From assembly GCA_973895155.1 (NCBI GenBank), contig OZ316894.1, positions 22,787,867 to 22,851,866 on the forward strand: a stretch of 64,000 nucleotides of DNA, written 5' to 3'. Every line of letters starts with the position of its first letter. The first letter of the stretch is position 1. Origin of the DNA: Marsupella aquatica. Lineage: Eukaryota > Plantae > Marchantiophyta. The notes below the pieces were generated by a model, which was not told where the DNA came from, did no database searches, and worked only from the letters and a program-made list of their open reading frames with translations. A program made the position numbers and the translations under genes. Below are positions 6,989 to 37,794 of this stretch, one piece after another.

Positions 6989-9900
6989 TCAAAATACAGA
7001 CGTGAGGACGTGGCTAGCTAATCTCCACAGTGCCCGGATCAACAAAAACCAGCACAGAGCTGACACAGCACCCAGCACAAATACAAAAACGAAGCCGCTG
7101 TTGGAACCACGAGTAACTCGTCGTTGTAGACCGACACTTCCGGTGCTAGGGTCGCAATTCACACAAAGTGGCTCCAATGTCTCGCTCCCCTTCGACTGCC
7201 ATGAACTGGACACAACCTGTTGGTACATACCTTTGGCATCACCTTCCACACGACAATCGGTGACAGCAGCTTCCACCTTCTGGGCACCGTCAGGTGAGGA
7301 AGTACAAGTAAGTGTCACAGAACTCAAGTGAAAGGAGCTGTATGAAGAAGCGATCTCTCCATTTGTCTGCAAAGGCTTCGTATCAGGTGCACATTCGGCA
7401 GCAGACGCAGGCAATGCTGGTAGGGATCCTAAGAGCCTCATAAGCCCTGCCAAAGGCTTTGACACAGGTTTGGCCTCTTCCAAAGGCCCAGCTTGAGGGG
7501 ACGGAGAAAAATGAGGGGCCTCAGACACGGCGGACTGGGAGTACTTCACCGGCTTATCGGGTGGAGGTACATTGACTTCTGAACTTCCATGGTCCCCAAC
7601 CAACTGAGGGGGGTCGGCGGGAGCAAACTCGCATTCCTCATACTCTGACGCCATATTGAGCAATTCATCGTCCAATGGAAAGTCGAAAAACTGGTCTTGA
7701 AAAGAAAACAAGTTATCTTCACTGGAAGGGACCCCAAATATACCAGAACCAGCTGTAGAGGCAGAGGCGAGGTCCGATGAAGATGGCGGTTGATTGATGT
7801 CAGAGTGATTGGAGGAGGATCCTCCAGGAGCTGACCGTGTCACATTTGAGGTTGTGCTGTCCTCCCTTGCTTGAGATGGGACCTGCATAGAATGTCAACC
7901 CAGATCCAGCCACATTTAACAATACTCCAAAGATAGTGTTTTTTTTTCTCGAGGGACATCCACACTAATCTACAAGAACTTGCCTCATCGTCAGGTTCCA
8001 GGCCAGCGACGATGGGTTGACGGCTACCTGACGATTAAAACTAGAATACATGCTCGTAACTTTGTCTCGATTGAAGGCTACATCCTCAAAAAATAATTAT
8101 TCCGACTACATGCACAGGGCTGTTGGGCTCCGGGGACGATGGGCTACAAGAAAAAAGCGAGTCTCCACAGAACCCTGTCATCATGCATCATCACACTTCG
8201 CTGTGAGCGCCATCAGCAAAGATGTCATCATAGCACTCACCTCAGGACCTCTGAAGTTCATGTTAGACATCTGTTGCTGAGGTATTGCTTCATAGCGGTG
8301 GAGGCCGTCGTTGCTGCTGCGAGCGCGCAGCTGAGCTTCTACAGCTGTAGGCTGCTGGCGCGCTGCTCGCAAGCGAGCTCTGGCAGGCCCGCGGCCACGG
8401 AGCTGCTGGTTTACATTCTCACCAAAGTTTGGAACACCAACCCTACCCTCCGAATCGTTCGGCAGCTTGTTCGACTCCAGTTCCTCCACCAACGGAGGTA
8501 GGACATCATCTGTTCCAAAAAGCTCTGACTGTAGCATATCAAAATACCCAACTCCTCCGTTGGGCTCATCCTCCTGGGGTTGTTGAGGCTGAGTCTCAGA
8601 ACTGCTCAAGTCAGAGCTCCACATCATGCCACTGGGAACGTCCGTCTCCCTATTCCCTTGCCAACCCCCAAAGAGCTCGGAAGAGGGCACCTGCTGCGCC
8701 AAAATATCCGCAGCGGCAGATGGAAGATCCAATTCTCCGGTGATTGAAGAGAAGCAGTCCCAAAATGGAGCCTCCTCCTCATTCTGCAAGTTCAGGTACA
8801 CATTCATGTCAGACGACTTGACTGATGAGCACAAGAAATTACGTACATGAGCTACTTTACGTGCCTCGAGAAAGACACGCTGAAGAATAAGAAACAATTA
8901 ATACAATGTCAGAAGACCGAAGGCTCTCGCAAAGTTTAGAAAGAAACACACACTCACCTGTGCGAACGTAGGCTCATCCAATATGTAGTCGTCCAAGGGG
9001 ACCACCGCAGGCACATCGATGACATCCCCTTCCTCCTCACCAGGCGCATAGTCGTCCACAGAGAGTGCAAGAACATATACTTCGCTGTCTTCACGAGGAG
9101 CAACCTTGGGAGATTCAATCGGAGCTGCCACTGCCACTGGAGCTGCCTCTACCACTGGCGCTGCAAGGGCAGGTGCGGACTCCGGTTCCAAAGCCTTCTT
9201 CACAGCCTCAGCGAAAGAGCCGGATGTTTCCTTGTCAATGTCGTCGTCGACGTAAGTCTGAGGACCCCGATCCTCCCCGCTTCTCGGTCCCACTCCGCTC
9301 TTCTTGAAAACCCGGCACAAGACGAACAAGTCCTGCAGACGCAATCCACAATCATGATCTCAGTATACAAATGGCAAATGACATGCAACAAAGCACTACT
9401 GGCCCAAGATAAGAAGGCTCAATATCTACAGACCTGAAACAATTTTGAGAAAGGGGCTAGACGCAGCTACACACCGCCAAAAATATGAGGGCGAGGAGTA
9501 GACATGATAGCATCTAGGAAAAGACATACCTGCGAGGCGTGCACTTTATCACACTCCTCCTCGTCCAGTCTGTATTCGTGCATAACCCAATCAGTTCTCT
9601 CTCCATGAGGAGCTCGCCCCCGGTAAAACACTAGGGTCTTCTTCATCCCCACGACTCGACCAGCCTTCTTCACGTTCCTGTCCTTCCCTGTTGCTTTCCA
9701 ATACCCAGCTTCTGTCGCTCGGTTGGTGCGCAACCCGTTGGGGTACTTCTTATCACGTGGACTGAAGAAGTACCACTCCATGTCACTTCCAGGCAAGAAG
9801 GATTTCTCTGCGAAAAGCGCAAGTGAGGCAAGAACCGTTCAGTCGTCGACACTAGCATCACAGCATCGGGATACTAATCAACAGCGAAAGACACATACTA

Positions 9901-10088
9901 GAGATCGGCAAAGCAACAAGTACTGAGCATGCATGCATACCTGGTAAATCCCATGGCTCTTGCCGGTACAAATCTATCTCGGTAATGATGTTGAACTCGA
10001 CGGTGCGGCCTGCAACCTTCCTCTTCAAGTAGTATGCCACAAGCTCCTCATCCGTGGGGTGGAACCTGAAGCCAGGCGGAAGAGCCAT
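6989..10088 (-). CDS. Membrane-bound NAC transcription factor (NTL type, NAC053/078-like)
   Basis: Exon 1 10088-9941 ([21 protein letters not shown]), exon 2 9807-9530 ([15 protein letters not shown]...GYWKATGKD...[26 protein letters not shown]), exon 3 9332-8958 (LCRVFKK), exon 4 8783-~8241, last exon 7882-6989 with [14 protein letters not shown] and a C-terminal hydrophobic anchor ([19 protein letters not shown]). Small exon(s) between 7.9 and 8.2 kb are unresolved. Confidence 0.92.
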
Positions 10089-10115: not shown

Positions 10116-10640
10116 CTGGCGTGCTTCCCAGGTCGATGTGTCAATCAGTGTAGCTCCCGTTTCCGAGTAACAAAAGCTTTGTCTCACCCGCTGCTATTAC
10201 TCCAACAACTACAAGGTCTGGCGTGCTTCCCAGGTCGATATGTCACTTCCCAAGTCGATGTGTCAATCAGTGTAGCTCCCGTTTCCGAGTAACAAAAGCT
10301 GTGTCACCCGCTGCTATTACTCCAACAACTACAAGTTCTGGCGTCTTTCCCAGGTCGATGTGTCAATCAGTTGAGCTCCTGTTTCCGAGTAACAAAAGCT
10401 ATGTGTCACCCGCTGCTATTACTCCAACAACTACAAGTTCTGGCGTGCTTCCAGGTTGATGTGCCAATCAGTGTAGCTCCCGTTTCCGAGCAACAAAAGC
10501 TTTCCGTCACCCGCTGCTATTACTCCAACAACTACAAGTCTGGAGTGCTTCCCAGGTCGATGTGCCGATCAGTGTAGCTCCTCTTTCCGAGCAACCCAAA
10601 GCTTTGCCTCACCCGGTGCTATTACTCCAACAACTACAAG
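10116..10640. repeat. ~102-bp tandem repeat x5, probably inside a 5'-UTR intron (10715-10091) of the NAC gene
   Basis: Unit ctggcgtgcttcccaggtcgatgtg...tactccaacaactacaag starts at ~10116, 10218, 10338, 10440 and 10540. On the minus strand there is a donor (gcaag|gtgcg) at ~10715 and an acceptor (ttgcag|tgATG) at 10091. Confidence 0.85.
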
Positions 10641-11094
10641 TTCGATGCTCCACTTTCCGATGCTGCTTCGGTCGTGCTAGGTTCCTGCGATCGATGATCA
10701 TTTCCTAGCTCGCACCTTGCCGCGAAGCAATTCGTCCCTTTCTGTGAGGCGAAGGCCCAGAAATACTTGTCAGCAGAACACGACACCAAAATCCACAAGA
10801 AGCGACTCCAAAATCTACGAGAAGCGACTCCACAATCGAGAGCAGAACACCCACCAGCAATCACAGCACTGCACAATCACTCCCTTCGTCGCGAGCAGCT
10901 CAGAGACTCGGAGGAGCGCGCAGAAACTCGGAGGAGGGCAGGGCGAGCGGAAGAAGAAGGAGCAAGATAGAGGTGACGAGGCTGCGTATCTATACGAGTG
11001 GACTGGAATGGAGTAAAGTGGAGTGGTTTGTGCGAACGAATGATAATCCTCTCATTGACTGGACTACAAGTTGAGGACGTGATTCACGCAACGC

Positions 11095-11335
11095 GGTCAA
11101 ATGGGGGAACCATGGTCAGTTATTAACACTCCCTTGTACTTCACAGTCACAAGGGGGAACCATGGTCAGTTATTAACACTCGCCTGTACTTCACAGTCAA
11201 AAGGGGGGACCATGGTCAGTTATTAACACTCGCCTGTACTTCACAGTGAAAAGGGGGCACCATGGTCAGTTATGAACACTCGCATGTACTTCACAGTCAC
11301 AAGGGGGAACCATGGTCAGTTATTAACACTTGCAT
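11095..11335. repeat. 50-bp minisatellite, left part (5 units), interrupted by the retroelement
   Basis: catggtcagttattaacactcgcctgtacttcacagtcaaaagggggaac recurs every 50 bp (11111 to 11311). Confidence 0.95.
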
Positions 11336-11372
11336 TATCATGCGGAGGGACAGTGCCTCTTATGCACATCGG

Positions 11373-11697
11373 CATGTCCCTCGCCTGCCCGCTAGGTATG
11401 TAGTTAGGGCTAGTGTACTACCTGAGTTAGCGACATGTTCTTGTAGCAAATCTGGGCCGTTCTTGAAGCAAATGTGCTTGTTAGTGTGACGCCAGGACTT
11501 TGCTTGCTTAGGGCATGTCTTTCTTTGTGGGTTTTCAGTTCTTCTTGAATCGCTGTGAGACAGAGTTTTTCAAAGGCTGCTCGTCGGTTCCGTACACGGA
11601 ATTCACACAGTGATTCGTTAGATGCTCCCAGCCGATCTTGGCATCTTGCCGGTTTTCGATTCGATTTCAGTACGTTTGTTTCTATCACGCCTTTTAT
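11373..11697 (+). repeat. Repeat A1 (325 bp), copy of A2 at 20792-21116
   Basis: Manual alignment at offset 9419 shows 5 mismatches, all transitions. Confidence 0.95.
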
Positions 11698-11709
11698 TCA
11701 AGAAGAACT
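11696..11709 (+). promoter_or_regulatory. Putative self-priming primer-binding site (Tf1/sushi-like)
   Basis: ATTCAAGAAGAACT is the exact reverse complement of AGTTCTTCTTGAAT at 11537-11550, whose first A lies in an Inr-like TCAGTT. No TGG tRNA PBS is present. Confidence 0.7.
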
Positions 11710-14700
11710 CGTCGAGATAGCAGTGAGGGGAAGAAGATTACTTGTGGCGGTTTCGACAATTTCTGGTGAAGTCATTGCAATTTCTTCGACGGACATCGGA
11801 GGGACGAGTTGAAATTATGAGTTTAATGTCACGTTATGTGTAAGTATACACATAAAGCTTCTATTGGAACCCAGCTTTTCCTTCCCAGGTGTGTCCGCGA
11901 TCCCTTCCGTTGAATGTTGCCTCCGTCGATTGCCGGCCGCAGCATGACCTACTTCCGACTGCCATTCGACTGCCGCGAAGTGGAGGCGACTTGCTGCTGA
12001 TCGACACATGCGAGGCCGTTTTTCGGTGTTTCCCAGCCAATTTCTCTCCTTTTTCCATTTTGTTCAGGCAGCTCCCGTCGCGAGCTGTTTCCCGGCCGCA
12101 ACCCCTTTTCTTTACTTGGCAACTACCGTCGCGAGCTACCTCCTAGTCCTGCCGTTGCCCTACCTGCAGCCTGAGTATACACATGCGGGGCTCATCAATG
12201 CCCAAAGCCGCGCATAGGGCCGCGCGCCCTCCCTTCACTCCTCCTTACTCACATAGGGGGGGTCCCATTTTTCTTTCGCCTCCCCCTCGCCTCGTTTTAG
12301 CCTCGACCTTCCGTTGCCAGCATTAAGAGAGGGGGGGGAGTACAGACTCCCTTCTCTTGGGAGTAGATTTTCGCACAAGGAGGGAGAGGGCACGAGGCCC
12401 TATGAAGCATTAAAAGCAGGGGGGAGGGGAAGTTGAGCACAACCTGTCAAGCCAGGGGGAAGCGAGTGCCAAGAGAGGGCTCGAGGCCCTAGGCAACATT
12501 AAAGCAAGGGGGAGGGGGAGTCGAAGCAGTAGCGCAAGGAGTGGGCACGAGGCCCTAAGCAACATTAAGGAGGGGTGGGGGAGTTAGTCGCTCCCTTCTC
12601 TTCGGGAGCACATCAGGAGCCAGGAGGGGGCGCGAAGCCCTATGCAGGGCCCGAGCCATTGATTGAATCACAGTGGTGTGTGCATAGGCTGTCTTAATTG
12701 GGGCCCCATTTCTTTTCTTTCGCTGCGCCCTCGCCTCACTTCCTCGCTTCGCCGCACCTTTTCCTCCTTAATTAAGTGCTCCGCGGCCTGTACGTACATA
12801 GGGTCTCGTCACTTTTCCAGTGTGCTTGATACTTCCCGGGTCCACATCGGGGCCCGATGTATACACTTAACCGAGCCCCATGTTTGTACATTTGCAAGGG
12901 CCCCATGTATACACTTAAGGGGGCCCAGGTTTACGTTTTTAAGGGCCCATTTTTTAGGATTTCTTTGCTGCCGCAACGTGTCATCTGCATAAAGCTGAGG
13001 GCCCGGCATATTCATCAGACAGACAATCCAGCAAGCATAACACCAATACAATTGGAGTTTTTAAGGGTTTTTTCTTCGCTGACGGTTTTTCTGTGTGTTT
13101 ACACGTTCGACACATTTCTGCCTCGCACCGTTTATTTCCTAGCCTTGGGGCTGCCATTTCTTTTTCTTGTCAGTTTCTTTCCCATTGGCACCCAGGTGAG
13201 CATGCAGCATGTCAGCCGACGAGCCAGGAGGTAGCAGCACATCGCCACCGACACCCAGGTACCATTTACGGAGTGATCCACGACCATTGGTGCCAATTTC
13301 ATTGGAGTCTTGGCAATTTGAACGACGTCCACAGATTGTAGCAGCACCCACACCACGCAATCCTTCTGCTCAATTTGGCGGTCGCTTCACTACTAACCCG
13401 AAGCCTGCTATCACTTCCTTGCCATTTACCCCTTCTGCATTAGTGGTTGTTCCAGCTTCACCGACATACAGCATGGATGCTAGCCACTCATCTGGCCGCA
13501 TTGAGCGCTTCAACGGGTGGCTAGGCACTATTTCTTTACGTGAGTTCAAATCCACTTTCTACACTGTCGTTTATGAATTGGAGTTGAAGTACGGCAGCAA
13601 TTTCACAAATGCTTTTGCATTTAAGCAGCTAGCCAGGTATGTGCACCACGAGGCTTTGGATGTGTATGAGCAGCACTCTCAACGGTTGCTTGCTATCACA
13701 CAATTGCCTAACCCTGCCTATGCGAGTGCAATTGCGGCTGCCTCACAATTGGCATTACAGAATGCCATTGCAGCCCATGCTGCTGCTCCTACCACTTCCC
13801 CTCCTACTCCAGTTCCTACCACTGCGCCAGTTACTCCCACTATCTTGGCACAGGCTACATCAGGCATTTCTCCCACCATTGATTCCCCTGCCTTTGCTGA
13901 TCCAGTGGCTGAGTTTTTCCAGGTTCTTGAATTGGAATTCCCCATCAAGAGTGCTGACAAAATCATGCAGTTGGCCACCTTTGTGAGGCAGCGCGATGAA
14001 ACATTGAAGATGATGTATCGCCGGCTTCTCAAGCTGAAGGAGGACACCCAGAGCATCACTGACCTGGAAGCTGCTCATCGCTATCTTTGCGCATTGGAGG
14101 GCACACTAGCTCTCCATTCGCAAGTGTTGCAACAAGTATTCTTAGAGTTTGGAGACAGCTACACCCTGCTCAATGTCTATGACACTGCTGAGAAACTTGA
14201 GTTGGCCTATGCACATTATGAGGCCAGTATTGCATGTCCACTGCGATCCAGGTACCAGGCTGCTGCCCCTACACTGGCCACCCCTTCCCGTGTGCCACAG
14301 TATGGTTCCAAGACCAAGCCAGCCCGTGCTGCTTTCATGCTGCCATCTTGAAACTACTGTGGTAACCCCAATCACAAGGCTAATGACTGTGATATTGTTG
14401 CTGAGGACCTGTCTTGTGATTTTGCGGGAAAGTGGGTCACTTGGAGGCAGTTTGTTTTGCCAAATTCCTAGAGAGGAAGCAGCTACGACAACAGGCCCCT
14501 CCTCCTACTCCTGCTTCCACTCCCCCACCAGCTAGGAGGGCTCCTACTGCATCAACTGCTCCTCCTTCCAGTGGCAAAGCATCCAGTGCCAACAAACCGC
14601 CCAAGCAGCAACAGAAGCCACCAGCTCAAAAGGAGGCTCACAACGCACAGACAACTCAACTCCAGTCTCTGATTCATGAGGTTGAGTCCCTACGTGCCCA

Positions 14701-16300
14701 ACTTGTCAACATCAAAGGCAAGTCAACTGCCTCTACTGGTCCTTCTCAACCGGCTGGTCACGTGCAACCCATCCCTGGCCCAGGCACCACAGACAGTTCA
14801 ACACCTCTACCCCGCTCTTTCTATGGCTTGCCATTTGATGCTCATATGGGTGAGTGTGTGTTGTCCTCTGCTCCACAGCCTGGCCTTACAGCAGAATTTT
14901 CAGATTCATTCTGCCCTTCCTATTTTGCTTACCAGCAGGCCAGTGCTGCTTCCCGTACTGCTCCCACCCGCCGCATTGTACAGGCTGATGGTCTTGCTGC
15001 TGGTCCTCTGACTAGAGCCAGGGGAGCTCGGGCTATCATGCCCCGATCCTTTCAGCCACTCACACTTGCTGAAGAGCGCACCTTGTTGGCGAGGGGGGAG
15101 GGAGCTGCAGCTACATCCATTCCACCACCAGGTGCTGCTGACATTTCACAGGGAGTTGTTTCTCCTGAGCTGCTTGAGCATTTCACCTCCGGTATGGCAC
15201 AAAGGATTCTTACAACTCCACTTTTCAGTTGCCATGATTTACAGCTGGATGCTAGAGCTATCCTCAGGGCGCTAGAGGGTGCACTACATTCTTCATCAGC
15301 CCCTGTGACACCGGTTTTGGAGATCCAATCTCATATACATACTGGACCTTCTTCTTCTCCTTTACATGTTTCCACTGGTTTGGCTGCCCCAGTACCGATT
15401 GCTGCTGAGTGTGTGACCAGAGCTACACTTGATTCTGGTCATGCTGCTCCATCTTTCCTGGCTATGTTGTTGAGTGGAAAGACCGTGGACACTAACTCCC
15501 TTCACAAGGTACCTCATCATTTGCCGAGAGTGGTGCCTAGTGACAGGACTTCAGTTTCCACCACCATTGCCATTGTTGACAATAGGAATTCAGTGGTCAA
15601 GTTGGAGGGTCACACTCCTCAGGTGGTCATGCTAGACACAAGTGCTCAACCAGTGATATTGGGCATTCAGTTTGCCAAGAAGATGGGACTGTTGACTGAT
15701 CATTTACAGCAATCCAAGTGGCACATTCGGACTGCTAATGGCACTGTGGAGGATGTGCTGGGTGAGAGTTCTACTTTACTCACTCTCACTTTTAATGGAG
15801 GTACAGATCAGGAACTGCATTTCCCAGTCAGATGTTTGGTTACCAATGCCACTACGTATGATGTGCTCATTGGCCAGGAGGCTTTGTTCCCACCAGGTTT
15901 TACCATTGACAACTGGCATGAGCATGCATACTACAGAGTTGATTGGCATACGGATGGCTCACACTTGGGATACATTCCACTTGATTTGCATGGTGCCCAT
16001 ACCCCTATGGCTCACCACTGTGTGTTGAAAGCAGTGCACACAGCTACCTATGTCAACCACCCATTGCAGGATTGGATTGAGGAGGATGATGATGAGGTGG
16101 CTACTGCACATGCTGTTGCACGTATAGCAGCACTTTCTAGCAACGTGGATCATCAACCAGAGGTGGTACAACGGCTCCAAGCAGCCCATGGACCTTTGGT
16201 GGCTGCATTGCACAAATTTGAGGACCTTGGGCAGCATAATGGACAACCAATAGCCCCAATCTTGAGCGCACCAGTTACATGGACTCCTCCTTTAGATGGC

Positions 16301-17260
16301 CTTACATTGCTTGAGCTTTTTGGTGGCATTTCTACAGGCCTGGAAGCTCTTCTAAAGTCTGGCATGGTGGTGAAGCAGTACATCTATGTGGATATTGATC
16401 CAAGTGCAAGGCAAGTGGCTGAATCCCGTCTGCTGGAATTTTCAGAGCGATTTCCTCAGCAGTTTCCACACAGTGCATGGAAGTCTGCATTTTCTTTCTT
16501 TCCTCCAAATATCCAGCTTGTCCAGCACCGGCACTTAACCCTTCTTGGCTCCCTTGATTTGATCATAGCTGGTTGGGAATGCCAAGGGTTTTCAGTTGCT
16601 GGTCACGGTGCTGGACTGCATGATTCTCGTTCTGGCCTTTTCACAACATTGGTTCAGATTCTCACCTGGGCTCAATCCCTTTATCCTGCTGTTGGTTATA
16701 TCATTGAGAATACTCCATCTCAGTTTGACCAGCATCCATAGGTCAAAGAGGATTTCAGTGTGGTCCAACACTACTTGGGACCACCCCTTCTCATTGATGC
16801 AGTGCACTGTGGTTCTTATGCACATCGTCTTCGTAACTTTTGGACTAACCTTGCACCACCTTCCTTGTTGGAGTTAGCTCTTCACCACACATCCAGGGAC
16901 ACTAACCTCACAGTGGACCAGATTTTGGATCCTGACAGTTCTTGCCAACTGGTTACACGGCAAGAGCTAGCACCTTGGTATCCAGCTAATACCATTGGAC
17001 AACCCCGTGCTGCTTGGCCTACATTTGTGTCCTTTCCAGGTGCACATGCTTTTCAGGGTGATGGTCCTGGCCTGGTTTATCGACATTCTACTGGTACATG
17101 GGATGAACCTAGTCCTGAGGAGAGAGAACGGGCTATGGGCTTCCAACCCGGTACTACAGGTCACACCAAAATCACCAGGCTGGCCAGGAATGCTTTACTT
17201 GGCAGGGTAATGGATCTTAATGCTCTCACTTGGCTTCTGGTCACTTGCATCCTTTTTCAG
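16301..17260 (+). other. DNMT3-like cytosine-C5 DNA methyltransferase domain inside Pol (one in-frame TAG at 16739)
   Basis: Motif I LELFGGISTG, II YVDID, IV AGWECQGFS (catalytic Cys kept, PC>EC), VI IIENT, VIII DAVHCGSYAHRLRNFWTNL, IX ERERAMGFQPGTT, X RLARNALLGRVMD. Motif order is canonical, not DRM-permuted. Confidence 0.9.
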
Positions 17261-20200
17261 ATGTACATTCATCCAGCATCAGGAGTTCCAGCCCTACCAC
17301 TCCATGGTGCTGCTACATGGCATCCAGACCAGGTGCACTTACCTCTGTTCAACACTCACCACTTCAGTCCAAGTGTTGGGGGGGAGGAGGTCCCTTGTAA
17401 TGTGGCTGACATTATTTCTGAGTTTCATGGTGTGGATCAGACCAGAGCAACAGATATAGCAGGCCTTGGAGAGGCCTCATCACCTTATCAGCAGCATGCT
17501 AGCAGCTTGGACAGTGGAGAGGCTGGCACTTCTGGCTCTTCAAGCACGAGTACATCAGGTCCTATTCCTAGTGTTGCCAACTACACATTCATCATGGGCA
17601 ACCACCTGAGTAAAATACAGAAGGACCAGCTGTTAAATTTGCTCCTCAAGCATGAGAATGTGTTTGCTTTCTCTATGAAGGACTTGGGTAAGTGCAAGAC
17701 TATGCAGTTCTCCATTGAGTTGGCTGATGAAACACCTATCTTCAGGCGGAGACACCGTTTGAGTAAGCATGAGTGGCAGCTGGTGGATGAGAGATGCCAA
17801 GAGCTCTATGAAGCTGGTCTTATTCAGCCCTCTACATCAGATTTTGCAGCAGCTACAGTGATGCCAGCAAAGAAGGATTCCAATGGATTGTGGACAGAGA
17901 AGCGCATGTGTGGGGACTACAGGCCATTGAACCTGGTACCACCCCAGGACAGGTACCCCATGCCACGGCCAGAGGAGCTATTTGACAGCATTGGAGACTC
18001 AGACATCTTCACTCTTGTGGATCTAAGGCAAGGCTTTAACCAGATTTTGCTGCTTGCAAAGGACCGCAAGAAAACAGCTTTCCATGGTAGTAACCAACTA
18101 TGGGAGTGGTTGGTGATGCCATTTGGCTTGAAGAATGCGCCCATATTCTTTCAAAGAGTCATGGACCAGGTTCTTCAAGGTGTTGAGTTTCTGAAATGCT
18201 ACATTGATGATGTGTTGGTCCACAGCAAAGGATTTGACCAGCATCTACTTGACCTTGAGGAGCTATTCATGAGGCTTAAGAAGGTGAACCTAAAGATACA
18301 CCCCAAGAAGTGTGAATTTGCTGTCAGATCAGTAGTATACCTTGGGCACCGCATTCTTCCAAATGGAACCATGGCTCACTGGGCCAAGGTGGTATCCATC
18401 TTGGAAATGCCCACTCCGACTGATGTTCACACTCTTAGGAGCTTTATTGGGTTGTGCAATTACTACCGGATCTACATCAAAGATTTTAGTACCATTGCAC
18501 ATCCATTGTACTCTTTGTTGAAAAAGAATGTGACTTGGACATGGAGTACAGATGCCGAGGCAGCATTTGCCACTTTGAAGGAGAAGCTCTCAGAATACCC
18601 GGTGCTGAGAAGACCTGATTTCAGCAAGGTCTTTGTGCTACACACAGATTGGAGTGCCCTTGGGATTGGTGCCATTCTGGGCCAGCATGATGAGGAAGGT
18701 AAAGAGTACGTCATTGCCTATGCATCCAGGAGCAACAATCAGGCAGAAAGTCATTATTCTTCTTATGAGGGTGAATGCCTTGCTGTTGTGTGGGCTGTCA
18801 TACATTACAGGCCCTACCTCTATGGGACCAGGTTTACTCTCTACACCAACCACCAGCCCTTGAAGTGGTTGATGACTAACGACAAGCTTACTGGCAAGCT
18901 TGCTCGTTGGGCACTCATCCTCCCGGAGTATGACTTTGAGGTAATTCATAGGCCTGGTTTGACACATCAGAATGCTGACACTATGTCCCACAGCCCTTTG
19001 ATTACCTCTGATGATTCCTCAGATGCACGGCAAGATTTTGACCAGGTTTCCATCATGCCTACATTTCATGCATCGACCTATCTTGCTTTGCTGCCATGCT
19101 ATGTTGTTGACCAACTGTGGTGGACATATGGGAGGACAACGACACTCTGAGATTTCTGTAGCATGGGGAGTACCGCACACATGTTACTACTGCCCAGAGA
19201 GACCAAATTCAGCAAAGGTCCAAACGCTACTTGTGGAAGGGAGATCATCTCGTGCGCTGCTTGCCAGACAGGGAAGTGGTGGTTCCACCCATTCATGAGA
19301 GGGTTGGCCTTATTCGTAAGGTACATTCTGAGCTTGGTCATTTTGGCGTTAAGAGGACTTACAGCCTCTTGGTCCCTCATTATCATTGGAGAGGCATGCA
19401 TGGCCAGGTTCGAGATGTTATTGCCCGGTGTGAGCAGTGTGATAGGGTAAGGACTTCTTTCACGTCTCGGCAACCCACACTTCACCCACTCCCTATTCAG
19501 GGCATGTTTTATCGTTGGTCATGTGATTTGGCTGGAGAATTACCCCTCACATCTCGGGGTAATCTCTACATCATGATCATGATAGAGCATTTCTCCAAGT
19601 GGATAGAACTTGTGGCATTGCCGGATAAGACCTCCCGTAGCACCAGCCAGGCATTCCTACAACAAGTTCTCAGCCGCTTTGGAGCTTGTGCAGAATATCT
19701 CACTGACCAGGGCTCAGAGTTTAGAGGAGAGTTCCAGGAGCTGCTTGATCAGGCCCTCATTGATCATCGCCGGACATCACGAGATCACCCACAGGCAGAT
19801 GGCTTGGCAGAGCGCATGGTTCAGACATGCAAGAAGGGCCTCCGGAAGATCTGCCTCACCAAAAACAAGGAGGATTGGGACCTGGCCTTACCCTACATTG
19901 CCATGGGGTATAGGATGTCCAGACATGCATCACTGTCTAACTTTTCTCCCTACTTCTTGTTGTTTGGTCGTCACCCAGTTCCACCTTCTGCTATTGCTGC
20001 TCACATGCTTCAGGTGGTGGACTTGGATTCAGCTGTGACTTGGTCTGATGTGATCTCTTAGAGGGCTGCCCTATTCAGGAGGGTTATGCCCATGGCCATG
20101 GAGAATTTGGCCATTGCACAACACAGGGACACACTGCGTTATGCACACACACGAGGGGGCACTTTTCAGCCCAAGGTCAGGAAGTTTGATGTGGGAGATT

Positions 20201-20418
20201 TTGTGTACTTGCAGCGGCAAGCTAACGACACCCTGGACACCTCTACCAGTCGTACTATTCTCAGGGTTAAAGCTATTCGACCGTCTGGAGTGCTAGAGTT
20301 ACAAGGGGCAGATGGGCGCACAATTGCTGACAATGCCAAGAATTGCGCCCCTTGTCATCTGCCTAACCTAGATCCCACCATTGTGACTTCTACTTGGATT
20401 CCACCTGTGGACTACCCT

Positions 20419-20556
20419 TGCAAGGTGTGTTTGCGAATTGATGATGCTGACCAGATGCTGCTGTGTGACAATTGCAATGGAGGGTACCATCTTTTCTGCC
20501 TTCGGCCTGAACTTACCCAGGTGCCAGAAGGGTTATGGTTTTGCCCTTCTTGTGCT
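20419..20556 (+). other. PHD finger (C4HC3) at the integrase C-terminus
   Basis: CKVCLRIDDADQMLLCDNCNGGYHLFCLRPELTQVPEGLWFCPSC, in frame with the integrase across a single TAG at 20059. Confidence 0.93.
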
Positions 20557-20603
20557 CCACGTGCTACCTGAATTTTCTTCAGCCCTCCTTTTGGCTGTGG
20601 TCT

Positions 20604-20610
20604 GGGGGGG
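20604..20610 (+). promoter_or_regulatory. Polypurine tract (G7) directly before repeat B1
   Basis: tctGGGGGGG|atacagagg; repeat B1 starts at 20611. Confidence 0.6.
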
Positions 20611-21291
20611 ATACAGAGGTTTACACCTCCACTACGTACATACCACTTCATTTGTTTTTTCTTGGCACTTGTGAATGTGATTGGACTTTTTCTATGCATG
20701 TTGGTTGCTAGCAGCTTGCACATATGCCTTGCCGGTGACTTGTATGTTTTCGATACACTATGGCTACGATACTATATGTCACGACAGCTGTCATGTCCCT
20801 CGCCTGCCCGCTAGGTATGTAGTTAGGGCTAGTGTACTACCTGAGTTAGCGACATGTTCTTGTAGCAAGTCTGGGCCGTTCTTGAAGCAAATGTGCTTGT
20901 TAGTGTGACGCCAGGACTTTGCTTGCTTAGGGCATGTCTTTCTTTGTGGGTTTTCAGTTCTTCTTGAATCGCTGTGAGACAGAGTTTTTCAGAGGCTGCT
21001 CGTCGGTTCCGTACACGGAATTCACACAGTGATTCGTTAGATGCTCCCGGCCGATCTTGGCATCTCGCCGGTTTTCGATTCGATTTCAGTACGTTTGTTT
21101 CTATCACACCTTTTATATACAGAGGTTTACACCTCCACTACTACATACCACTTCATTTGCTTTTTCTTGGCACTTGTGAATGTGATTGGACTTTTTCTAT
21201 GCATGTTGGTTGCTAGCAGCTTGCACATATGCCTTGTCGGTGACTTGTATGTTTTCGATACACTATGGCTACGATACTATATGTCACGACA
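20611..21291 (+). repeat. B1 (20611-20786) - gc - A2 (20789-21116) - B2 (21117-21291)
   Basis: B1 and B2 differ by one 1-bp indel and 2 substitutions, and both end in ATGTCACGACA. The B1/A2 junction reads CACGACA-GC-TGTCATG. Confidence 0.95.
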
Positions 21292-22008
21292 GCATGTACT
21301 TCACAGTCACAAGGGGGCACCATGGTCAGTTACTAACACTCGCATGTACTTCACAGTCACAAGGGGGAACCATGGCCAGTTATTAATACTCGCCTGTACT
21401 TCACAGTCAAAAGGGGGAACCATGGTCAGTTATTAACACTCCCCTGTACTTCACAGTCACAAGGGGGAACCATGGTCAGTTATTAACACTCGCATGTACT
21501 TCACAGTCAAAAGCGGGAACCATGGTCAGTTATTAACACTCGCCTCTACTTCACAGTCAAAAGGGGGAACCATGGTCAGTTATTAACACTCGCCTCTACT
21601 TCACAGTCAAAAGGGGGAACCATGGTCAGTTATTAACACTCACCTGTACTACACAGTCACAAGGGGGGACCCTGGTCAGTTATTAACACTCAACTGTACT
21701 TCACAGTCAAAATGGGGAACCATGGTCAGTTATTAACACTCGCCTGTACTTCACAGTCACAAGGGGGAACCATGGTCAGTTATTAACACTCGCATGTACT
21801 TCACAGTCAAAAGTGGGAACCATGGTCAGTTATTAACACTCGCCTGTACCTCACAGTCACAAGGGGGAACCATGGTCAGTTATTAACACTCACATGTACT
21901 TCACAGTCACAAGGGGGAACCATGGTCAGTTACTTCACAGTCAAATGGGGGAACCATGGTCAGTTATTAACACTTGCCTGTACTTCACAGTCAAAGGGGG
22001 AACCATGG
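21292..22008. repeat. 50-bp minisatellite, right part (~15 units)
   Basis: Same unit as 11095-11335, with one truncated unit near 21930. Confidence 0.95.
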
Positions 22009-25000
22009 CCGATTGCCACTGGCAACATGTAAGGTACCAGGGTCCCGGTAAATGCCCATCAAAATATGGTCATATATAAAGTAATGCGTCCCCTGATTGC
22101 ACATCAAAATATGACATATAGTGAATATTACATTACTCCATACCATGATAAATCTCATTTTATTCTTTAAATAAATGAGTGCACAATGTATGTTATCATA
22201 TTTTGATGTGTAATTATCGCAGGGATATATAAAGGGAAAGGGTTGAAGACTTTCAGTATTCACATTCCATTCGTTCTTCTCTTCCATGGTGCCATTTTGT
22301 TTCCCTATTCTGGAAAAAGTATACTGTTAATGGCAAAACCTGGTGGATCCAGGTTTTTTCATGGCTAGTATTTGTCTAACACAAATAGGCACTCAACCTG
22401 ACTCATGCCGCCATATCATAGAGTGAGAGAGCCTAGCCTGGAGCCCCTCATGTACTGGAGAAGTATACAAGGCAAGGGCCATACACTTTCTGGCCCTTGC
22501 AGATCCAGACCTCAAACTGCAAAATTAAACCAAAGCTCAAATGCAACATTTTGTTGAGAGGAGTGACACTTGCTGCAATGCCCTGTATAATCTTTAGTTG
22601 CAAAACACTATCACGCCAACATTTACATAGCTTTTCTAAACAAGTGCAATCTGCCTTTCACCAGCATCTTTAGGAGTGATAAGGGCCGGAAATTCGAGGG
22701 TTCTAAGGGTTCTCTCAGTTGTTAAGAGCCTTTTCTTTTAAGGCCCTTAACATTCCTCTAGCTAGGGGATAACGTAATTTAGATTATTGACATGATTTGT
22801 CATTCTATTATTTGTGAATTTTCTCTTGTTCTATTCTATTTTCAAGGTTACTGCCCTTGCCCTTGGTCATCCATCACATGTGTCATCAGGTCTGCCTAAG
22901 GAGGAAAATTGAGGAGGAAAGTCTCACTCACTGTATGAATGTCACTCATTCAGTTGAGGGCCGCAAACTCAAGGGCCACCCACATGCAAGACTACCGTAA
23001 GGGTGAACTCTTAACATTTTTACATTTCAAAAATATAGCTCAATTTGTTAAGTAATTTCTCAGATTCTAGTTTTTTTTAAAGCAATGACAATGAAAACTA
23101 GGTGTTTTTGTAGACTATAGATTGTAAATATTTTCATAAGTTCCACAAAAAGTAAGTACCATTTTTTCTCATGGACTCAAATTCTCTATAATTATAAAGC
23201 GCAAATGAAACCTAGGGGAAGTGTTATTGGTTTTTCACAAGCAAAGGACCTAATTGTTTAATTTCATGGAATCAATTTTCAATAATTCTTTACGGTAGTG
23301 TACTACACCAGGCCAGGTGGTACTGTACAGTTGTGCATGACAATGTATAAATAAAGCTTTGGAAGGTAAGCTTGTTGGGAAGGGTTATTGTGAAGTGACT
23401 TTGGGACCACACCTCACATGGGGGATAGAGTTAGTTGACAAACCTATCAATAAAGCGCAAACGAACCCTAGGGCAAGGGTTATTGAGCTAAGTTTGTAGG
23501 CACTGACTTTGGGATCACACTAACATTGGGGATAGATGGTACCCACCATCTGCTAACTAACGACTCCAAAATACACTATATTATTACATATATATACTAC
23601 TACATTTTTGTGAGCAGGCCAGTTCTACTCCATTGCTGTTTTGTTTTTTATTAGAAAAATGTTAAACCATTTTCTCTAATAGTATTGGAGAACATTAAAT
23701 GTTTCATGCAAGAGAAAAAAACACAGAAATGTACCTCATATGAAGTGCGATAAAAACAAATAAAAAGATGGGGGTGGAAGGTACAGGAAGGATGCTACAG
23801 ATCATTATGTTGTTGTTTCACGAGGTAATGTGGTACATATTGATATAAATAATGTAGTATACAATAGTTGTTTTGTGTTGACCAGAGGAGACGAGGCACT
23901 GCTCACTTAAATCCCAATAAAGTTTAAGTTCTCTCCATGACTCTGAATGATCATGCTAACTATTTAGCAGAGTGGTAGAAGGGAGCAGCAGTGCTGGAAG
24001 GTCAAGGGTTTGAAACTAGTTGAGTATCCTTTTCAGGAGCCTTGCAACTGAGACTCTAGAATGTGGGGTACTCATGCAACCTGGAAGACATGTACATGTT
24101 CTTGCAAAACAAAAGTAAAGAACAAAAAGCAAGTTGACCGGGGTTCCATCTATATTAAAAATTAAAAAACCCAAAGAATAGGCTCTGCTGAAGCTAATTA
24201 AAAACTAAATACTCACCTCTGAAAGGTAGCTCCCCTCAGGTGGATTGTGCCATAAGTGGAGGTCAAAAATATGTGATTGAAGTCTTCCTACTTTGTACAA
24301 TGAATTCTCATAAGTAGAGACAGGCATGAGGAGTCGAGTCGGGGTACAGGGAGAGCCTTTCCTATACATACTCAAAGGATATTTGAGCTAGTATTTATCA
24401 CTGCTAGACTTCTAGTTGGCACGTATCACTACGACACTACCAGACATGTAGTTAGCACATGGACTGATAAGAATTTCATTAGCATCACGAATATCATTTT
24501 TCTAGTTTCGGGAAAGGTATGTGAGTGATGAGACTTCACTCCTTCCTAGGACGTATTTCTTTCTTCAAGACTGTACTATCCATGTGAGCTATTGGATTGA
24601 TATAGATTTCAGGAGAACCATTAGATCTGGTGTTTTGATATGAGCAATTAGATTTCTCTAGGTCTATAGTGGACCATTAGATTTCAGAAACCCTCTTAGT
24701 TTAATAAAGATTTGGCTTGCGAAAAGGATAAATTTCATTAATTTTCTTTGTACTAAGTCACTGCCCCTGTCACCACAGCATTTTCTAGGTAAGATCGGAC
24801 TTATATGAGTCTAGGAAAATGGCTGATCACGTGTATTAGTCATGCCTCCACACTGCAGTCCCCCTATCCCAATGGTGGGTGAAGACCTGTCCAACAAAGT
24901 GTGTCAAAACCTTGTGATGGCAGGGCCCTATGGAGCTCCTTTGAAGCTGCTTTTTGTAAGCTTTCTCTTCCTCATAGCACAACATACAAGCAAGGTATCC

Positions 25001-28000
25001 ATAACAAAAAGTATCAAGCTAGGTCTGACTTGCTAGAAAAAATAGGGTGGCACTTCGGGTCTCTAGCCGTACTGTGCCTGTAACCCACCAGTCTGTGCTA
25101 TTGACAAATTATTGTATGAGATATACACAAATACCATTTATTAATGATTATATTGTGTCACGGCTGGCCATGTCCTTGTGACCATGGACTCCATTGGACA
25201 ACGATGGTGGCAGCCAACTACTATGCAAGGATGATCGGTGCAGTCTAACTTATTGACCACGGTAAACTGAAGGGTTAAGACTCCTTGTGACCATGCGATG
25301 CAACTCCCGCTCAAAAATTCCCAGCAATATGATATGCTCTTTCATATGCCCAATTATATTATATACGTAGAAATAAGCAATGGAGGTCACCCTTTGTACC
25401 GTATGTGGGCCCTGGCAAGCTTTTTAGTTTGTTTCTTACTGGAGTTTTAGTGCTTTTGCCCTTGCTGGGATTCTCCTACTTTTTGGCTCTTAGAGTTTCT
25501 TAGGTGTTTCTTCTGTTTTCTCCCCTTTCTTGGGCGGCCTTTCAGATCTTGTCTTGAGGTTTGTGTCTATCTGTTCTATGAAATTTTTATTTACACACTT
25601 TGAATGGGAATTTGAAACCCCCATTGACCACAAGGTTTGTCTCTAAAACCTCCATGGACTACATTTTCTAAAATCTGAGCTTATTTTAATAACTTGATAT
25701 TTATAAATTCCAATATTTTTTAGTGTTGGGGATACGCTGGAGGAGTAGCTACACTTCCATCAAAGTGACAGTAAAATTTTGGCTGCTTGGTTGGGTTTCT
25801 CATCGTAGATGCGAAAGGGTAAATTCTATGATATTATTTTCCCCGTGTTAACATGAATATTTGGGCTTGTGTGTTTATGTCTCCTCTTCTCTAGTTGCCT
25901 TGCAGGTGCAACACAATGAGTTAGTTTAGAACTCCTAACCACCAAGTTATTGGCCCCAAATTCCAATGGACCACATTTTGGAATTTGAAGCCACAATGGA
26001 CTACCATGTTGGACACAGTGTACTCTATTATTCTCTTATTATTTTTGGACTTTTGCCCTCTATTATATTATTCCCTTATTATTCTGGGACTGTGCCTTCC
26101 CTTCCAAGCCCTCTATAGTTTAGGAGGAAGTAGAGCCTTGATACAAGCGCCTCAATTGGCCGTTGAAATAATTGTGATTGAAAGTCATAAAATGCAATTA
26201 AATTATAGAAATAAAAACCATACACCACCCCAACCTCACACATAGCGAGCTAGGAACAAGTGATCAAGTTATGGACCCAACTCCCATGAACCACATTTTG
26301 GTGGTCTACACGAGTACACTATCCAACATAGAGGTCCATCCTGGCTTCACTTTGGGAACATGTGATTTCATTACTTCAGTTTGAAAGTCTACTTTCATTA
26401 TCCTCTTATTATTGTTCTCATCAAACGTGTAAGCCACAGCGTCTCCAACACTTTAGTGAGGAATTTCACAGGCAATAGCGCAACAAGACTTCCCTGGACC
26501 AAAGCTACTTAGACGTTGCCACCTGTCCATGCCTCTGGATTCCCGTGAATCGTGCGGTCGTCGAGTCTCCACTGACGGATGAGGGGGACGATGGACCGGG
26601 GTGTCAGAGTCAGACGATGGCCACTTTTAAAGCATGTCGGACTCTGGTGCAGCATGACAGTCATGCGTGGGCTTACTTCAGGCGTACACAAACATCCATT
26701 GGCTGTACGATGATTGATGAATTGGTCCATGGACGAACCGACCAACGGGGCCAATAGGGGTCTCAATAGGGGTCTCAATAGGGGTCGGTCTCAATAGGGG
26801 TCTCAAAGCGTTAGTTATGGTCAAGGACAAAAACAGTTATAACTTACCTACAGTAATTCACAGCGGGTCTCAACATTGTGGAGTAGCAGGTCTCAATAGG
26901 GGTCTCAATACTTCAATAGGGGTCTCAAAGCCTTAACTTAGGTTAAAGGACAAAGATCGTTATAATATTACCTAATTCCTACATTGAGACCCCTAGTGAG
27001 ACCCCTATTGTGAATTAGGTAATATGTAACATTGTTGTGTGGAGTAGCAGGTCTCAATAGGTGTCTCAAAGCCTTAACGTAGTTTAAGCACAAAAAATAG
27101 TTATACCTAATTGGTAGTCCATAACTTTATGCCATAAAATGTGGTCATATGTCATGAGACTGGTGAAAAATATCAAATTTGTTTTTCACATAATTCCATG
27201 AAAAAGTCGTGGTCATGTGCTTATGACCAAAAGTCATTATCTGTAACTTTGAAGTTTAAAACGCCCTAATAATATTGTGGAGGGCACTTTTCCCACTGGC
27301 ATGCAGAAATGTCCGTGAATGGGACAACTGTACTCAATCTTGGGCACACAATTTTGAGACTATATGCACTTGATGTTTGATGGACTTTGCTCTTGCCAAG
27401 ATGGCACTAAGCAACAACACATGAACATGCCGCCTCCCACTTCCTACACAACAATGGTCATGACACTATAGGGAAATCCTGCGGGCAGCTGGTGCGGATC
27501 ACCCTTGTGGGTGCCCATCCCATGTTTGCCTGGGGCTGTGAATGAGGTGTCACTGGGCCGTTGCAAAAATTGAGACCCCCAGTAGTAAAGTTACTCATTG
27601 TTCTAATATGCTCTTTCTCCTCCCTCCTGCATTCATGTAATAGGTTAGGGGCTTTTCTTGATTTGAGGGACTCTAGAAAAAATCTTTGTTGTGAGCCTAG
27701 TAGTGCTCTTTACTTGCAAGCTTTACTACCCTTTTCATTTTATTGGTCAATAGGGCTTTAATTATTTTGTTATAGGAGAGGACTCTTAGGTTGTTTGGTC
27801 TTCCTGGGTTTGTCCCTTGTTTTCTCCTCTTTGTTAGATCATCTGCCTTTGGGATCTTGTCCCCCAATTGGGCACAATTTGTTCTTGGCACTGTGTTATA
27901 TGCATAAACTAAGCTTTTCAGTTCACTAAGCTTCCCACTTGAATGTTCAATAGGGCTTTAGTTCGTTTGCTTTTGTAGGGGTCGCTAAGGCTTTTTGGCT

Positions 28001-32909: not shown

Positions 32910-33200
32910 CTAGTTCAATACCTGTGCGTTGCACGATAGATGTCCTTAAGGAAAAATATGTCGTGTTGCCCAAGATTCGTTAGGAAAAAAATTCATTTTG
33001 CCAAAGACGTTGTTATGTAAAAGATGTTGTTATGTGAAAGTTGTTGTTATAAGAAAGATGTAGTCAAGTAAAAAGATGTCATTAACAAAAAAAAGTTTAT
33101 TTTGCCAAAGAAATCGTTATATGGAAAATGTAATCAAGTAAAACTATTTCATCATTCAAGTAAAAAGATGTAGTTAAGAAAAAAAAGTTATTTCAATAAG
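32910..33200 (-). mobile_element. Helitron 3'-end fragment
   Basis: Minus strand reads cgtgcaacgcacagg-tattgaaCTAG|T, followed by the same degenerate aaagatgt.gtt repeats as the 38487 Helitron. The 5' end was not found. Confidence 0.6.
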
Positions 33201-37600: not shown

Positions 37601-37794
37601 CAAAGGTTGCGAACTTAAATGAGAACTTAGGGGCTTTGAAAGTAAAGTTGACGCCCAAGGAGCTAGAAGAGGTGGCAGCTGCTGTGCCAAGCGCGGATGT
37701 GGCAGGCGGTAGATTTTCCGAATCCCATATACTGAACTTCACCTGGAAGGATGCCGTCACACCGCCTTTGGAATTGACTTCGAAAACCGCATAG
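34684..37794 (+). CDS. Aldo-keto reductase (plant AKR13/perakine-reductase-like), copy 1, 7 exons
   Basis: [16 protein letters not shown]|VSALGLGCM...FFDTSDAYG...ASKYG...YYQHR...[10 protein letters not shown]...YSPLGRG...PIPGTTK; the D/Y/K/H tetrad is intact. GT-AG introns; TATA at ~34400. Confidence 0.93.
36750..37045 (-). mobile_element. TRIM (296 bp) with 119-bp tRNA-derived LTRs, in AKR copy 1 intron 5
   Basis: LTRs 36750-36868 and 36927-37045 (TGTTGG...CCAACA); 5-bp TSD GAAAC; minus-strand PBS TGGTATCAGAGCCA (tRNA-iMet) and PPT AAGGGTGGG. The empty site is at ~48189 in copy 2. Confidence 0.95.

What the first reader, a model, noticed from the sequence alone, without database searches (positions are those of the whole stretch)
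16301..17260. Retrotransposon carries a DNMT3-like cytosine methyltransferase between protease and RT
Seen: a complete C5-MTase motif set (I, II, IV, VI, VIII, IX, X) in frame with PR and RT. AHRLRNFWTNL, ERAMGF and RLARNALLGR resemble DNMT3 rather than circularly permuted DRM or MET1/CMT. Motif IV is GWEC instead of GxPC and motif VI is ENT. Known, from memory: DNMT-bearing retrotransposons have been reported in dinoflagellates and the alga Klebsormidium; I do not know of one described in a land plant. Inference: the enzyme is packaged with Pol and may methylate the cDNA or circle (self-marking, host mimicry or self-silencing).
Basis: partly seen in the sequence, partly recalled or inferred. 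Interest (0 to 1): 0.88.

Follow-up and report, generated by a model that had tools for sequence, protein, structure and literature searches.

The report
Liverwort retrotransposon carrying a DNMT3 methyltransferase
This is a dead copy of a liverwort jumping gene whose polyprotein includes a DNMT3-like DNA methyltransferase, a kind of element described in a green alga; the enzyme likely methylates the element's own DNA copy, and the rearranged end repeats suggest that the element inserts by cutting inside its repeat rather than at its ends.

Summary
Confirmed. Bases 16301-17260 encode an unpermuted DNMT3-type C5 methyltransferase between protease and RT of a decayed 9,956-bp Ty3/Gypsy element (11336-21291). 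The host is most likely a leafy liverwort (neighbouring NAC exon 97% identical to Calypogeia). The model matches DNMT3A/B (Z 30). The catalytic Cys is invariant, and GWEC is a family trait, not decay. Relatives occur in Sphagnum, Calypogeia, Closterium and Klebsormidium, with dN/dS near 0.1; a second group (one named source, Scenedesmus) carries the domain between RNase H and integrase. So this is a land-plant member of the published KnitGypsy-Dnmt3 kind; activity is untested. The ends are more surprising: layout A...B-A-B, TG...CA termini, 4-bp target duplication, self-priming site after the first A, purine tract before the first B. These place the reverse-transcribed LTR as B-NN-A, so integrase likely cuts an internal CA-NN-TG palindrome and the cDNA ends are rejoined. 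Only the left site is used (0 of 21 mirror forms). I found no paper on land-plant copies or on this route. This scan noted both features earlier on other DNA.

The parts
11336..21291 (+). Whole decayed Gypsy-DNMT3 element, 9,956 bp
   Evidence: Ends and target duplication read; repeats
11332..11335 (.). Left copy of 4-bp target-site duplication (GCAT), in register with the 50-bp satellite
21292..21295 (.). Right copy of the target-site duplication (GCAT)
11336..11697 (+). Repeat A1. Starts TATCATG (family: TGTCATG) and holds a 34-nt extra stretch (11343-11376) absent from A2
   Evidence: A1/A2 98.5% over 325 nt; relatives' ends
11537..11550 (+). Predicted self-primer arm (likely transcript 5' end), complementary to 11696-11709
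   Evidence: 14-nt perfect complement; best of 1000 shuffles 12; in the MFE and centroid folds
11696..11709 (+). Predicted primer-binding site at and just after the end of A1
   Evidence: two compensated differences against L003
13473..14351 (+). Gag-like region, ended by a stop in this copy; in frame with Pol in P0010 and P0071
   Evidence: no Pfam hit
15596..15886 (+). Aspartic protease
   Evidence: PF13975 E 2.5e-6
16301..17260 (+). DNMT3-like C5 cytosine methyltransferase domain; catalytic Cys codon 16580-16582; broken by TAG at 16739-16741
17903..18355 (+). Reverse transcriptase core
   Evidence: PF00078 E 7e-28
18542..18931 (+). RNase H
   Evidence: PF17917 E 3e-36
19288..19791 (+). Integrase: H2C2 zinc finger and DDE core
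   Evidence: PF17921, PF00665 E 6e-14
20419..20553 (+). C-terminal PHD finger
   Evidence: PF00628 E 1e-12
20604..20610 (+). G7 polypurine tract directly before B1
   Evidence: a G run or purine-rich stretch precedes B1 in 12 of the 14 loci printed, L077 and L079 are degraded
20611..20786 (+). Repeat B1, ends CACGACA
   Evidence: B1/B2 97.8% over 182 nt
20780..20795 (.). Internal attachment-like palindrome CACGACA-GC-TGTCATG
   Evidence: 2-nt spacer in 23 of 23 loci with B followed by A
20789..21116 (+). Repeat A2, starts TGTCATG
21117..21291 (+). Repeat B2, joined directly to the end of A2; ends CACGACA
11096..11330 (.). 50-bp satellite, left part of the target array
21295..22008 (.). 50-bp satellite, right part of the target array

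Best explanation
This is a dead copy of a Gypsy-DNMT3 retrotransposon whose single polyprotein includes a conserved DNMT3-type methyltransferase that likely methylates cytosines in the element's new cDNA, and whose integrase likely cuts an internal palindrome of the terminal repeat instead of using the cDNA ends. Steps: (1, shown) Gag-PR-DNMT-RT-RH-INT-PHD is one frame in intact relatives. (2, inferred) The protease frees the methyltransferase inside the particle, where it meets the cDNA and marks it, most likely at CG, so that a new insertion arrives looking like host repeat DNA. (3, inferred from sequence signals) The RNA starts inside A1 and primes itself on the site after A1; the plus strand starts after the G tract. 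This gives a linear cDNA B-NN-A...B-NN-A. (4, inferred) Integrase makes a staggered cut at CA-NN-TG of the left repeat, which yields two CA-3' ends with 2-nt overhangs, and inserts them 4 bp apart. (5, inferred) The original cDNA ends are joined by host end-joining, before integration (a 2-LTR circle) or after it. The product is A...B-NN-A-B, as seen.
For: Domain identity. Constraint: Cys in 76 of 76 aligned loci; dN/dS 0.10 (L001-L003, dS 0.96) and 0.09 (L003-L004, dS 0.15); median 0.11 for window against 68 loci; G99, C102, S106, G113, E144 invariant in 50 diverse sequences. One frame: P0010, P0071. DNMT and RT distances track each other (Spearman 0.64, 43 elements). CG precedent: SymbioDIRS-Dnmt3 methylates CG in yeast. 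CpG observed/expected is 0.19-0.38 in the coding parts and 0.68-0.78 in two LINE-like fragments of the window, CHG not depleted. Ends: 4-bp duplication perfect at 7 of 10 distinct both-ended sites, one mismatch at 2, absent at 1. Internal junction has a 2-nt spacer in 23 of 23 loci, while the A2|B2 joint is exact in 8 of 16 and altered in the others, with the three 2-nt losses apart on the tree. Self-priming helix. Retroviral integrase can cut a palindromic LTR junction (PMC1180852, abstract).
Against: No activity data; the Klebsormidium enzyme was inactive in yeast. Motif IV has Glu where Pro is canonical. dS between window and most loci is saturated (pS about 0.71), the linker-plus-RT-start control gave 0.15, not far above the domain's 0.11, and one close pair gave 0.37. 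CpG loss can come from host methylation alone; an H1-like host gene in the window is as low as 0.38. A free 2-LTR circle has two equal palindromes, yet the mirror product A-B-A...B was seen at 0 of 21 distinct 5' ends, so an unexplained asymmetry is needed. The primer region as a whole folds no better than shuffles (z -0.68). No cDNA, circle or RNA was observed.
Confidence: 0.6

Rival explanations
1. The domain binds DNA or chromatin but does not methylate: it is kept as a shield or tether for the cDNA, and the Pro-to-Glu change reflects relaxed catalysis.
For: EC in place of PC in 48 of 90 domains, with SC and DC in 7 more; no activity of the Klebsormidium enzyme in yeast.
Against: The nucleophile Cys and the motif VI Glu are invariant in the 50-sequence alignment; motif I glycines and motif VIII arginines are kept; EC and PC switch at least 6 times on the tree while Cys stays; the Klebsormidium protein has PC and human DNMT3B also failed in that assay.
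Confidence: 0.15
2. The enzyme is active, but its job is self-limiting: it silences new copies or sister copies and so spares the host.
For: Offered in PMC5890265 Discussion; plant host DNMT3b acts on heterochromatic repeats (PMC6453930 passages); decayed copies carry many C-to-T and G-to-A changes.
Against: The family is abundant: thousands of contigs at 90-99+% identity in three of four runs laid and 152 loci in one scan. The decay pattern is explained by host enzymes.
Confidence: 0.15
3. The split repeats are copied as in PAT/Ngaro (DIRS-like) elements: the RNA spans B2 and both joints are templated, with integrase standing in for the recombinase.
For: The layout A1...B1-A2-B2 is that of those elements; half of the A2|B2 joints are exact; it would explain why only one permutation is seen.
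Against: Primer site and purine tract sit at the end of A1 and the start of B1, which defines an ordinary LTR B-NN-A; A2|B2 is exactly the two predicted cDNA ends and varies, while the internal junction keeps its spacing; 4-bp duplications and a DDE integrase are present, no recombinase was found.
Confidence: 0.12
4. A chance capture of a host DNMT3 fragment by this one copy, now decaying.
For: This copy's domain is broken by a stop; only 2 of 80 loci have no stop in the mapped domain.
Against: Same position in Pol from Klebsormidium and Closterium to mosses and liverworts; 1,518 clusters at E<=0.001 (not all inspected); no introns; dN/dS about 0.1; the stop position is a sense codon in all 77 loci that align there.
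Confidence: 0.01

Closest known systems
KnitGypsy-Dnmt3 of Klebsormidium nitens (de Mendoza et al. 2018, PMC5890265; called Gypsy-DNMT3 of streptophytes in bioRxiv 10.64898/2026.05.21.726589)
   Same: Gypsy Pol with an intronless, unpermuted DNMT3 under purifying selection; DIRS-like repeat layout. A K. nitens protein (P0145, GAQ93235.1) has the domain after the protease, 37% identical.
   Different: Host here is a land plant and the family is abundant; motif IV is GWEC against GFPC in P0145; the paper's text that I read gives no target duplication, priming site or integration route. I could not see its Fig. 4c or supplementary figures.
SymbioDIRS-Dnmt3 (same paper)
   Same: DNMT3-type domain in Pol; split repeats; shown to methylate CG de novo in yeast.
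   Different: A DIRS-class element of dinoflagellates, an independent capture; here the integrase is DDE and target duplications are made.
Tf1/Sushi and plant Tcn1 chromoviruses (PMC6317226, PMC4600332 passages)
   Same: Gypsy domain order and predicted self-priming.
   Different: Two whole LTRs and a chromodomain there; here permuted repeats, a PHD finger and a DNMT. Placement against REXdb clades was not tested.
Host DNMT3 (human DNMT3A/B; moss PpDNMT3b, PMC6453930 passages)
   Same: Fold, motif order and catalytic residues.
   Different: Only 20-27% identity; no PWWP/ADD or other accessory domain; no introns; part of a polyprotein.
Integrase cleavage of 2-LTR circle junctions in foamy virus (PMC1180852, abstract)
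   Same: Integrase cutting an internal palindromic CA/TG junction to give processed ends.
   Different: There the palindrome is formed by joining the cDNA ends and is a side route; here it is encoded inside the repeat and appears to be the normal route.

Membership tests
Gypsy-DNMT3 (KnitGypsy-Dnmt3 kind) | Gypsy Pol order PR-RT-RH-INT | tested here: met
Gypsy-DNMT3 (KnitGypsy-Dnmt3 kind) | Intronless, unpermuted DNMT3-like domain within the Pol frame | tested here: met
   one frame in P0010, P0071
Gypsy-DNMT3 (KnitGypsy-Dnmt3 kind) | DIRS-like split repeats A1...B1-A2-B2 | tested here: met
   19 loci with B-A-B at the 3' end
Gypsy-DNMT3 (KnitGypsy-Dnmt3 kind) | Purifying selection on the domain | tested here: met
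   dN/dS 0.09-0.11 in most comparisons, 0.37 in one close pair; distant pairs saturated
Gypsy-DNMT3 (KnitGypsy-Dnmt3 kind) | Common descent with the K. nitens elements | tested here: inconclusive
   P0145 falls on the same 23-row side of a FastTree branch (support 95) but without a root or host DNMT3 outgroup
DNMT3-type C5 methyltransferase | Motifs I-X in unpermuted order and DNMT3 fold | tested here: met
   Z 30, rmsd 2.4, 270 residues; bacterial enzymes Z 24-26
DNMT3-type C5 methyltransferase | Catalytic Cys (IV), Glu-Asn (VI), RxR (VIII) | tested here: met
DNMT3-type C5 methyltransferase | Pro before the catalytic Cys | tested here: not met
   Glu here and in 48 of 90 family domains; Pro in 30
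DNMT3-type C5 methyltransferase | Branching within the DNMT3 clade against host DNMT3 and DRM | not tested
   No host DNMT3 sequence was returned by my searches; only ranked scores
DNMT3-type C5 methyltransferase | Methyl transfer to DNA cytosine | not testable with these tools
   needs an assay
DIRS/PAT/Ngaro (tyrosine-recombinase) retrotransposons | Tyrosine recombinase in place of a DDE integrase | tested here: not met
   rve and H2C2 present; no Pfam hit in 16 other frames of 100 aa or more within the element
DIRS/PAT/Ngaro (tyrosine-recombinase) retrotransposons | No target-site duplication (recalled) | tested here: not met
   4-bp duplication at 7 of 10 sites
Canonical LTR retrotransposon | Two whole LTRs at the ends, PBS after the first and PPT before the second | tested here: not met
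   PBS and PPT bound B-NN-A, but the inserted ends lie inside that unit; no B upstream of the 5' A in 28 of 28 loci
Tf1-type self-priming elements | PBS complementary to the transcript's own 5' end | tested here: inconclusive
   Complement present and conserved; transcript start and cleavage not observed

The most novel reading that the evidence does not exclude
A green-lineage-wide retrotransposon clade integrates only through a palindrome inside its LTR, and its own DNMT3 works like the methylase of a restriction-modification pair: it marks one of the two identical CA-GC-TG sites of the cDNA so that integrase opens only the left one, the one cut that leaves a copy able to replicate again. 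This would tie the two odd features together and explain why the mirror product was seen at 0 of 21 sites.
Probability: 0.12. Interest if true: 0.92.

Novelty: new member of a known kind. Interest (0 to 1): 0.58.

Why it matters
It extends DNMT3-bearing retrotransposons from one alga to abundant families in liverworts and peat mosses, with relatives in Closterium and, in a second domain order, in chlorophyte-type elements. That points to an old, stable partnership and means bryophyte methylomes and DNMT gene counts may include a transposon-borne enzyme. The natural Pro/Glu switch before the catalytic Cys is a ready test of C5-methyltransferase chemistry. The ends give a testable answer to an oddity that the 2018 paper noted without explaining, and bear on an old question: whether an LTR element can integrate routinely from end-joined cDNA by an internal integrase cut.

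Tried and rejected
No whole genome is held for this window, so copies in the same assembly could not be counted. Viral contigs held no relative of P0021. No RNA holder was listed. Whether the closest copies share the stop at 16739 is open: one search showed 40 of 668 difference rows and none at that place. An IQ-TREE run did not finish, so all trees are FastTree, unrooted, without host DNMT3. Rejected: GWEC as decay; DRM or MET1/CMT; a hidden recombinase; a 5-bp duplication (4 bp fits, 5 does not); a preference for satellites as targets (flanks of the other loci are unlike each other); a 5' end at 11375 (no duplication there; 11336 restores the satellite register). Dropped before counts: L050 (damaged ends) and loci with one end from the duplication count; one stray match in L060 from the junction count; repeated sites were counted once for duplications and 5' ends but not in the 23 junctions or the 80-locus residue tallies. 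About 12 loci end in a single B; two distinct sites with both ends are A...B with a duplication, which fits either a 1-LTR circle or later B1-B2 recombination and was not used as evidence. Paper searches; none reports land-plant copies or the permuted route, but most subscription journals, Repbase reports and theses are outside the library, and the supplementary figures of PMC5890265 and the preprint's supplements could not be read.

Full report
Observation. The frame 14420-19150 encodes protease, a C5 methyltransferase, RT and RNase H in one register, with a TAG at 16739-16741 in the methyltransferase. Integrase and a PHD finger follow. The copy is dead: further stops at 14349-51, 19159-61 and 20059-61 and frame changes near 14419 and 19114. 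A1/A2 are 98.5% and B1/B2 97.8% alike, so the insertion is fairly young, of the order of a million years if the rate is near 1e-8 per site and year (assumed).

The domain. Read with X at the stop, its best PDB sequence hit is DNMT3A, collinear from motif I to X. A profile of 50 family members ranks DNMT3A (E 1e-23) and DNMT3B (6e-20) above 4onj (2e-11), M.HhaI (2e-9) and DRM2 (9e-8). The model has mean pLDDT 97; Foldseek and VIA-align put DNMT3A/B first (TM 0.73; Z 30, rmsd 2.4 over 270 residues; bacterial enzymes Z 24-26). Motif IV is EC in 48, PC in 30, SC in 4, DC in 3 and unparsed in 5 of 90 near-full domains (this includes the window and three near-duplicates), and EC/PC changes at least 6 times on the tree. 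The Cys is invariant in the 50-sequence alignment and in 76 of 76 loci aligned there. I could not place the family in a tree with host DNMT3, since none was returned.

Host and distribution. The neighbouring NAC exon is 97% identical to Calypogeia fissa and 86-91% to Riccia, with the seed-plant hits shown at 84% or less: most likely a leafy liverwort. Named relatives of the domain come from Calypogeia fissa and Sphagnum, Closterium and Klebsormidium nitens. Half of the domain finds 1,518 clusters at E<=0.001, of which I saw 150. Two orders occur: PR-DNMT-RT (window, bryophytes, Closterium; PR-DNMT in the partial Klebsormidium protein) and RT-RH-DNMT-INT-PHD, the latter with one named source, Scenedesmus. 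The window groups with Calypogeia and the Sphagnum-like proteins (support 100). DNMT and RT-RH distances correlate (0.64 over 43 elements; 10 of 40 splits shared), which fits long co-inheritance but does not prove one capture. In metagenomes 152 loci were found and 80 kept; they are probably moss host DNA (inferred from likeness to the Sphagnum proteins). Thousands of contigs at 90-99+% identity cover all 30 bins of 11330-20600 in three runs and 748 in a fourth; none of the 15 joints shown, of 70, skips the methyltransferase alone.

Selection. Window against 68 of 71 well-covered loci: median dN/dS 0.114 for the domain, 0.055 for RT, 0.092 for protease, 0.153 for the linker plus the start of RT; dS is near saturation. 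Less saturated pairs give 0.10 (dS 0.96) and 0.09 (dS 0.15); one close pair gives 0.37 (dS 0.05). Most loci are decayed (2 of 80 without a stop in the mapped codons), with changes typical of methyl-C deamination.

The ends. The repeats are A1 (11336-11697), B1 (20611-20786), A2 (20789-21116), B2 (21117-21291). The element sits in a 50-bp satellite with a GCAT duplication that restores the satellite's register. Relatives begin TGTCATG and end CACGACA; a 4-bp duplication is perfect at 7 of 10 distinct both-ended sites (window, L003, L015, L034, L047/L068, L056, L079), has one mismatch at L028 and L070 and is absent at L013. B-A-B ends occur in 19 loci and a single B in about 12. The B1/A2 junction is CACGACA-NN-TGTCATG with a 2-nt spacer in 23 of 23 loci (22 by pattern, L074 by eye). 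A G tract lies directly before B1, and the sequence at the end of A1 is the 14-nt complement of 11537-11550; 1000 shuffles reached at most 12. L003 differs at two positions in both arms and keeps the pairing, at the same offset in A; 17 of 24 5' ends keep 13 or more of 15 pairs, 5 keep 9-12 and 2 were not found. Self-priming of this kind is described for Tf1-type and plant Tcn1 elements (passages). The region as a whole folds no better than shuffles.

Mechanism. These signals define the reverse-transcribed LTR as B-NN-A, so RT should give B-NN-A...B-NN-A (inferred from the standard LTR cycle). The A2|B2 joint is exactly the predicted right end joined to the predicted left end. It is exact in 8 of 16 copies and shows losses, a gain or an unclear base in the other 8; the three 2-nt losses need three changes on the tree. 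That contrast with the fixed internal junction suggests end-joining made anew each cycle. A staggered cut after CA on both strands of CA-NN-TG gives the usual processed integrase ends. Foamy virus integrase cuts such a palindrome at 2-LTR junctions (abstract of PMC1180852). Against a simple free circle: a cut at the other palindrome would give A-B-A...B, and this was seen at 0 of 21 distinct 5' ends (28 loci; three sites have under 270 nt of flank). A plain explanation is timing, one LTR being double-stranded and bound first; a bolder one is methylation of one site. For the enzyme, the simplest role is marking the cDNA in the particle. CG is the likeliest context: SymbioDIRS-Dnmt3 methylates CG in yeast, moss DNMT3b acts de novo at CG and CHH (passages), and the coding parts are CpG-poor (0.19-0.38) but not CHG-poor. 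The last point is weak, because host methylation gives the same.

Known and new. De Mendoza et al. 2018 (PMC5890265; I read the abstract, passages of section 9 with the Fig. 4 legend, sections 10 and 11, and searched three supplements; the supplementary figures were not readable) describe KnitGypsy-Dnmt3 with a Dnmt3 in Pol, Ka/Ks under 0.2 and DIRS-like repeats, and found no activity in yeast, inconclusively. A 2026 preprint (first fifth and passages) and PMC12344493 (passages and table rows) refer to it as a streptophyte element. This window is a member of that kind. Ten paper searches found no report of land-plant copies, of the second domain order or of the integration route. Earlier notes of this scan describe the DNMT in a peat-moss copy and the permuted repeats in other genomes; I reached my reading before the look-up, and those notes are not independent support.

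Verdict. Real and well supported as a DNMT3-bearing Gypsy element (about 0.95); an active enzyme in live copies about 0.75; acting on its own cDNA about 0.6; integration through the internal palindrome with end-joining about 0.75. New member of a known kind, interest 0.58; the reading in which the methylase chooses the integrase cut site has probability about 0.12 and would merit 0.92.

Noticed in passing
window 6989-10088 (-): Intron-containing NAC transcription factor gene about 1.2 kb from the element's left end; exon 9530-9808 is 97% identical to a Calypogeia fissa protein and 86-91% to Riccia. It ends in a hydrophobic stretch, as membrane-bound NACs do (inferred). Its leader holds a 101-bp tandem repeat (10124-10643).
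   Followed up: partly
window 50960-53242 (-) and 60192-61745 (-): Two related long frames with an H1-like domain (PF00538, E 8e-5 and 4e-4; Atlas 0.84, a lead only) followed by Arg/Ser/Lys-rich tracts; the first has 150-bp tandem repeats. They resemble liverwort sperm protamine-like proteins (recalled, not tested).
   Followed up: partly
proteins P0016-P0024, P0033-P0173: A large sister group has the same DNMT between RNase H and integrase (56 of 90 near-full domains), mostly with GWxCQD; the only named source among 12 looked up is Scenedesmus. P0015 looks like a PR-DNMT-RT protein nested in this group, so the domain may have moved more than once.
   Followed up: partly
window 11343-11376: A 34-nt extra stretch in A1 bounded by a CATG duplication, with an 8-bp inverted match (GAGGGACA/TGTCCCTC) to the sequence that follows; absent from A2.
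   Followed up: no
window 29353-30141 (-) and 41167-41991 (-): Two fragments that read like the C-terminal parts of non-LTR retrotransposons (my reading; no significant Pfam hit).
   Followed up: no
window about 31900-38300 against 44500-49500; 23860-25276 against 42328-43731: Large local duplications at 89-99% identity with spacings near 11.1-12.6 kb and 18.5 kb.
   Followed up: no
L024/L026 8404-8564, L058 4538-4913, L061 2865-3240: Pieces of other copies of the same family lie inside or next to these elements in the opposite orientation.
   Followed up: no
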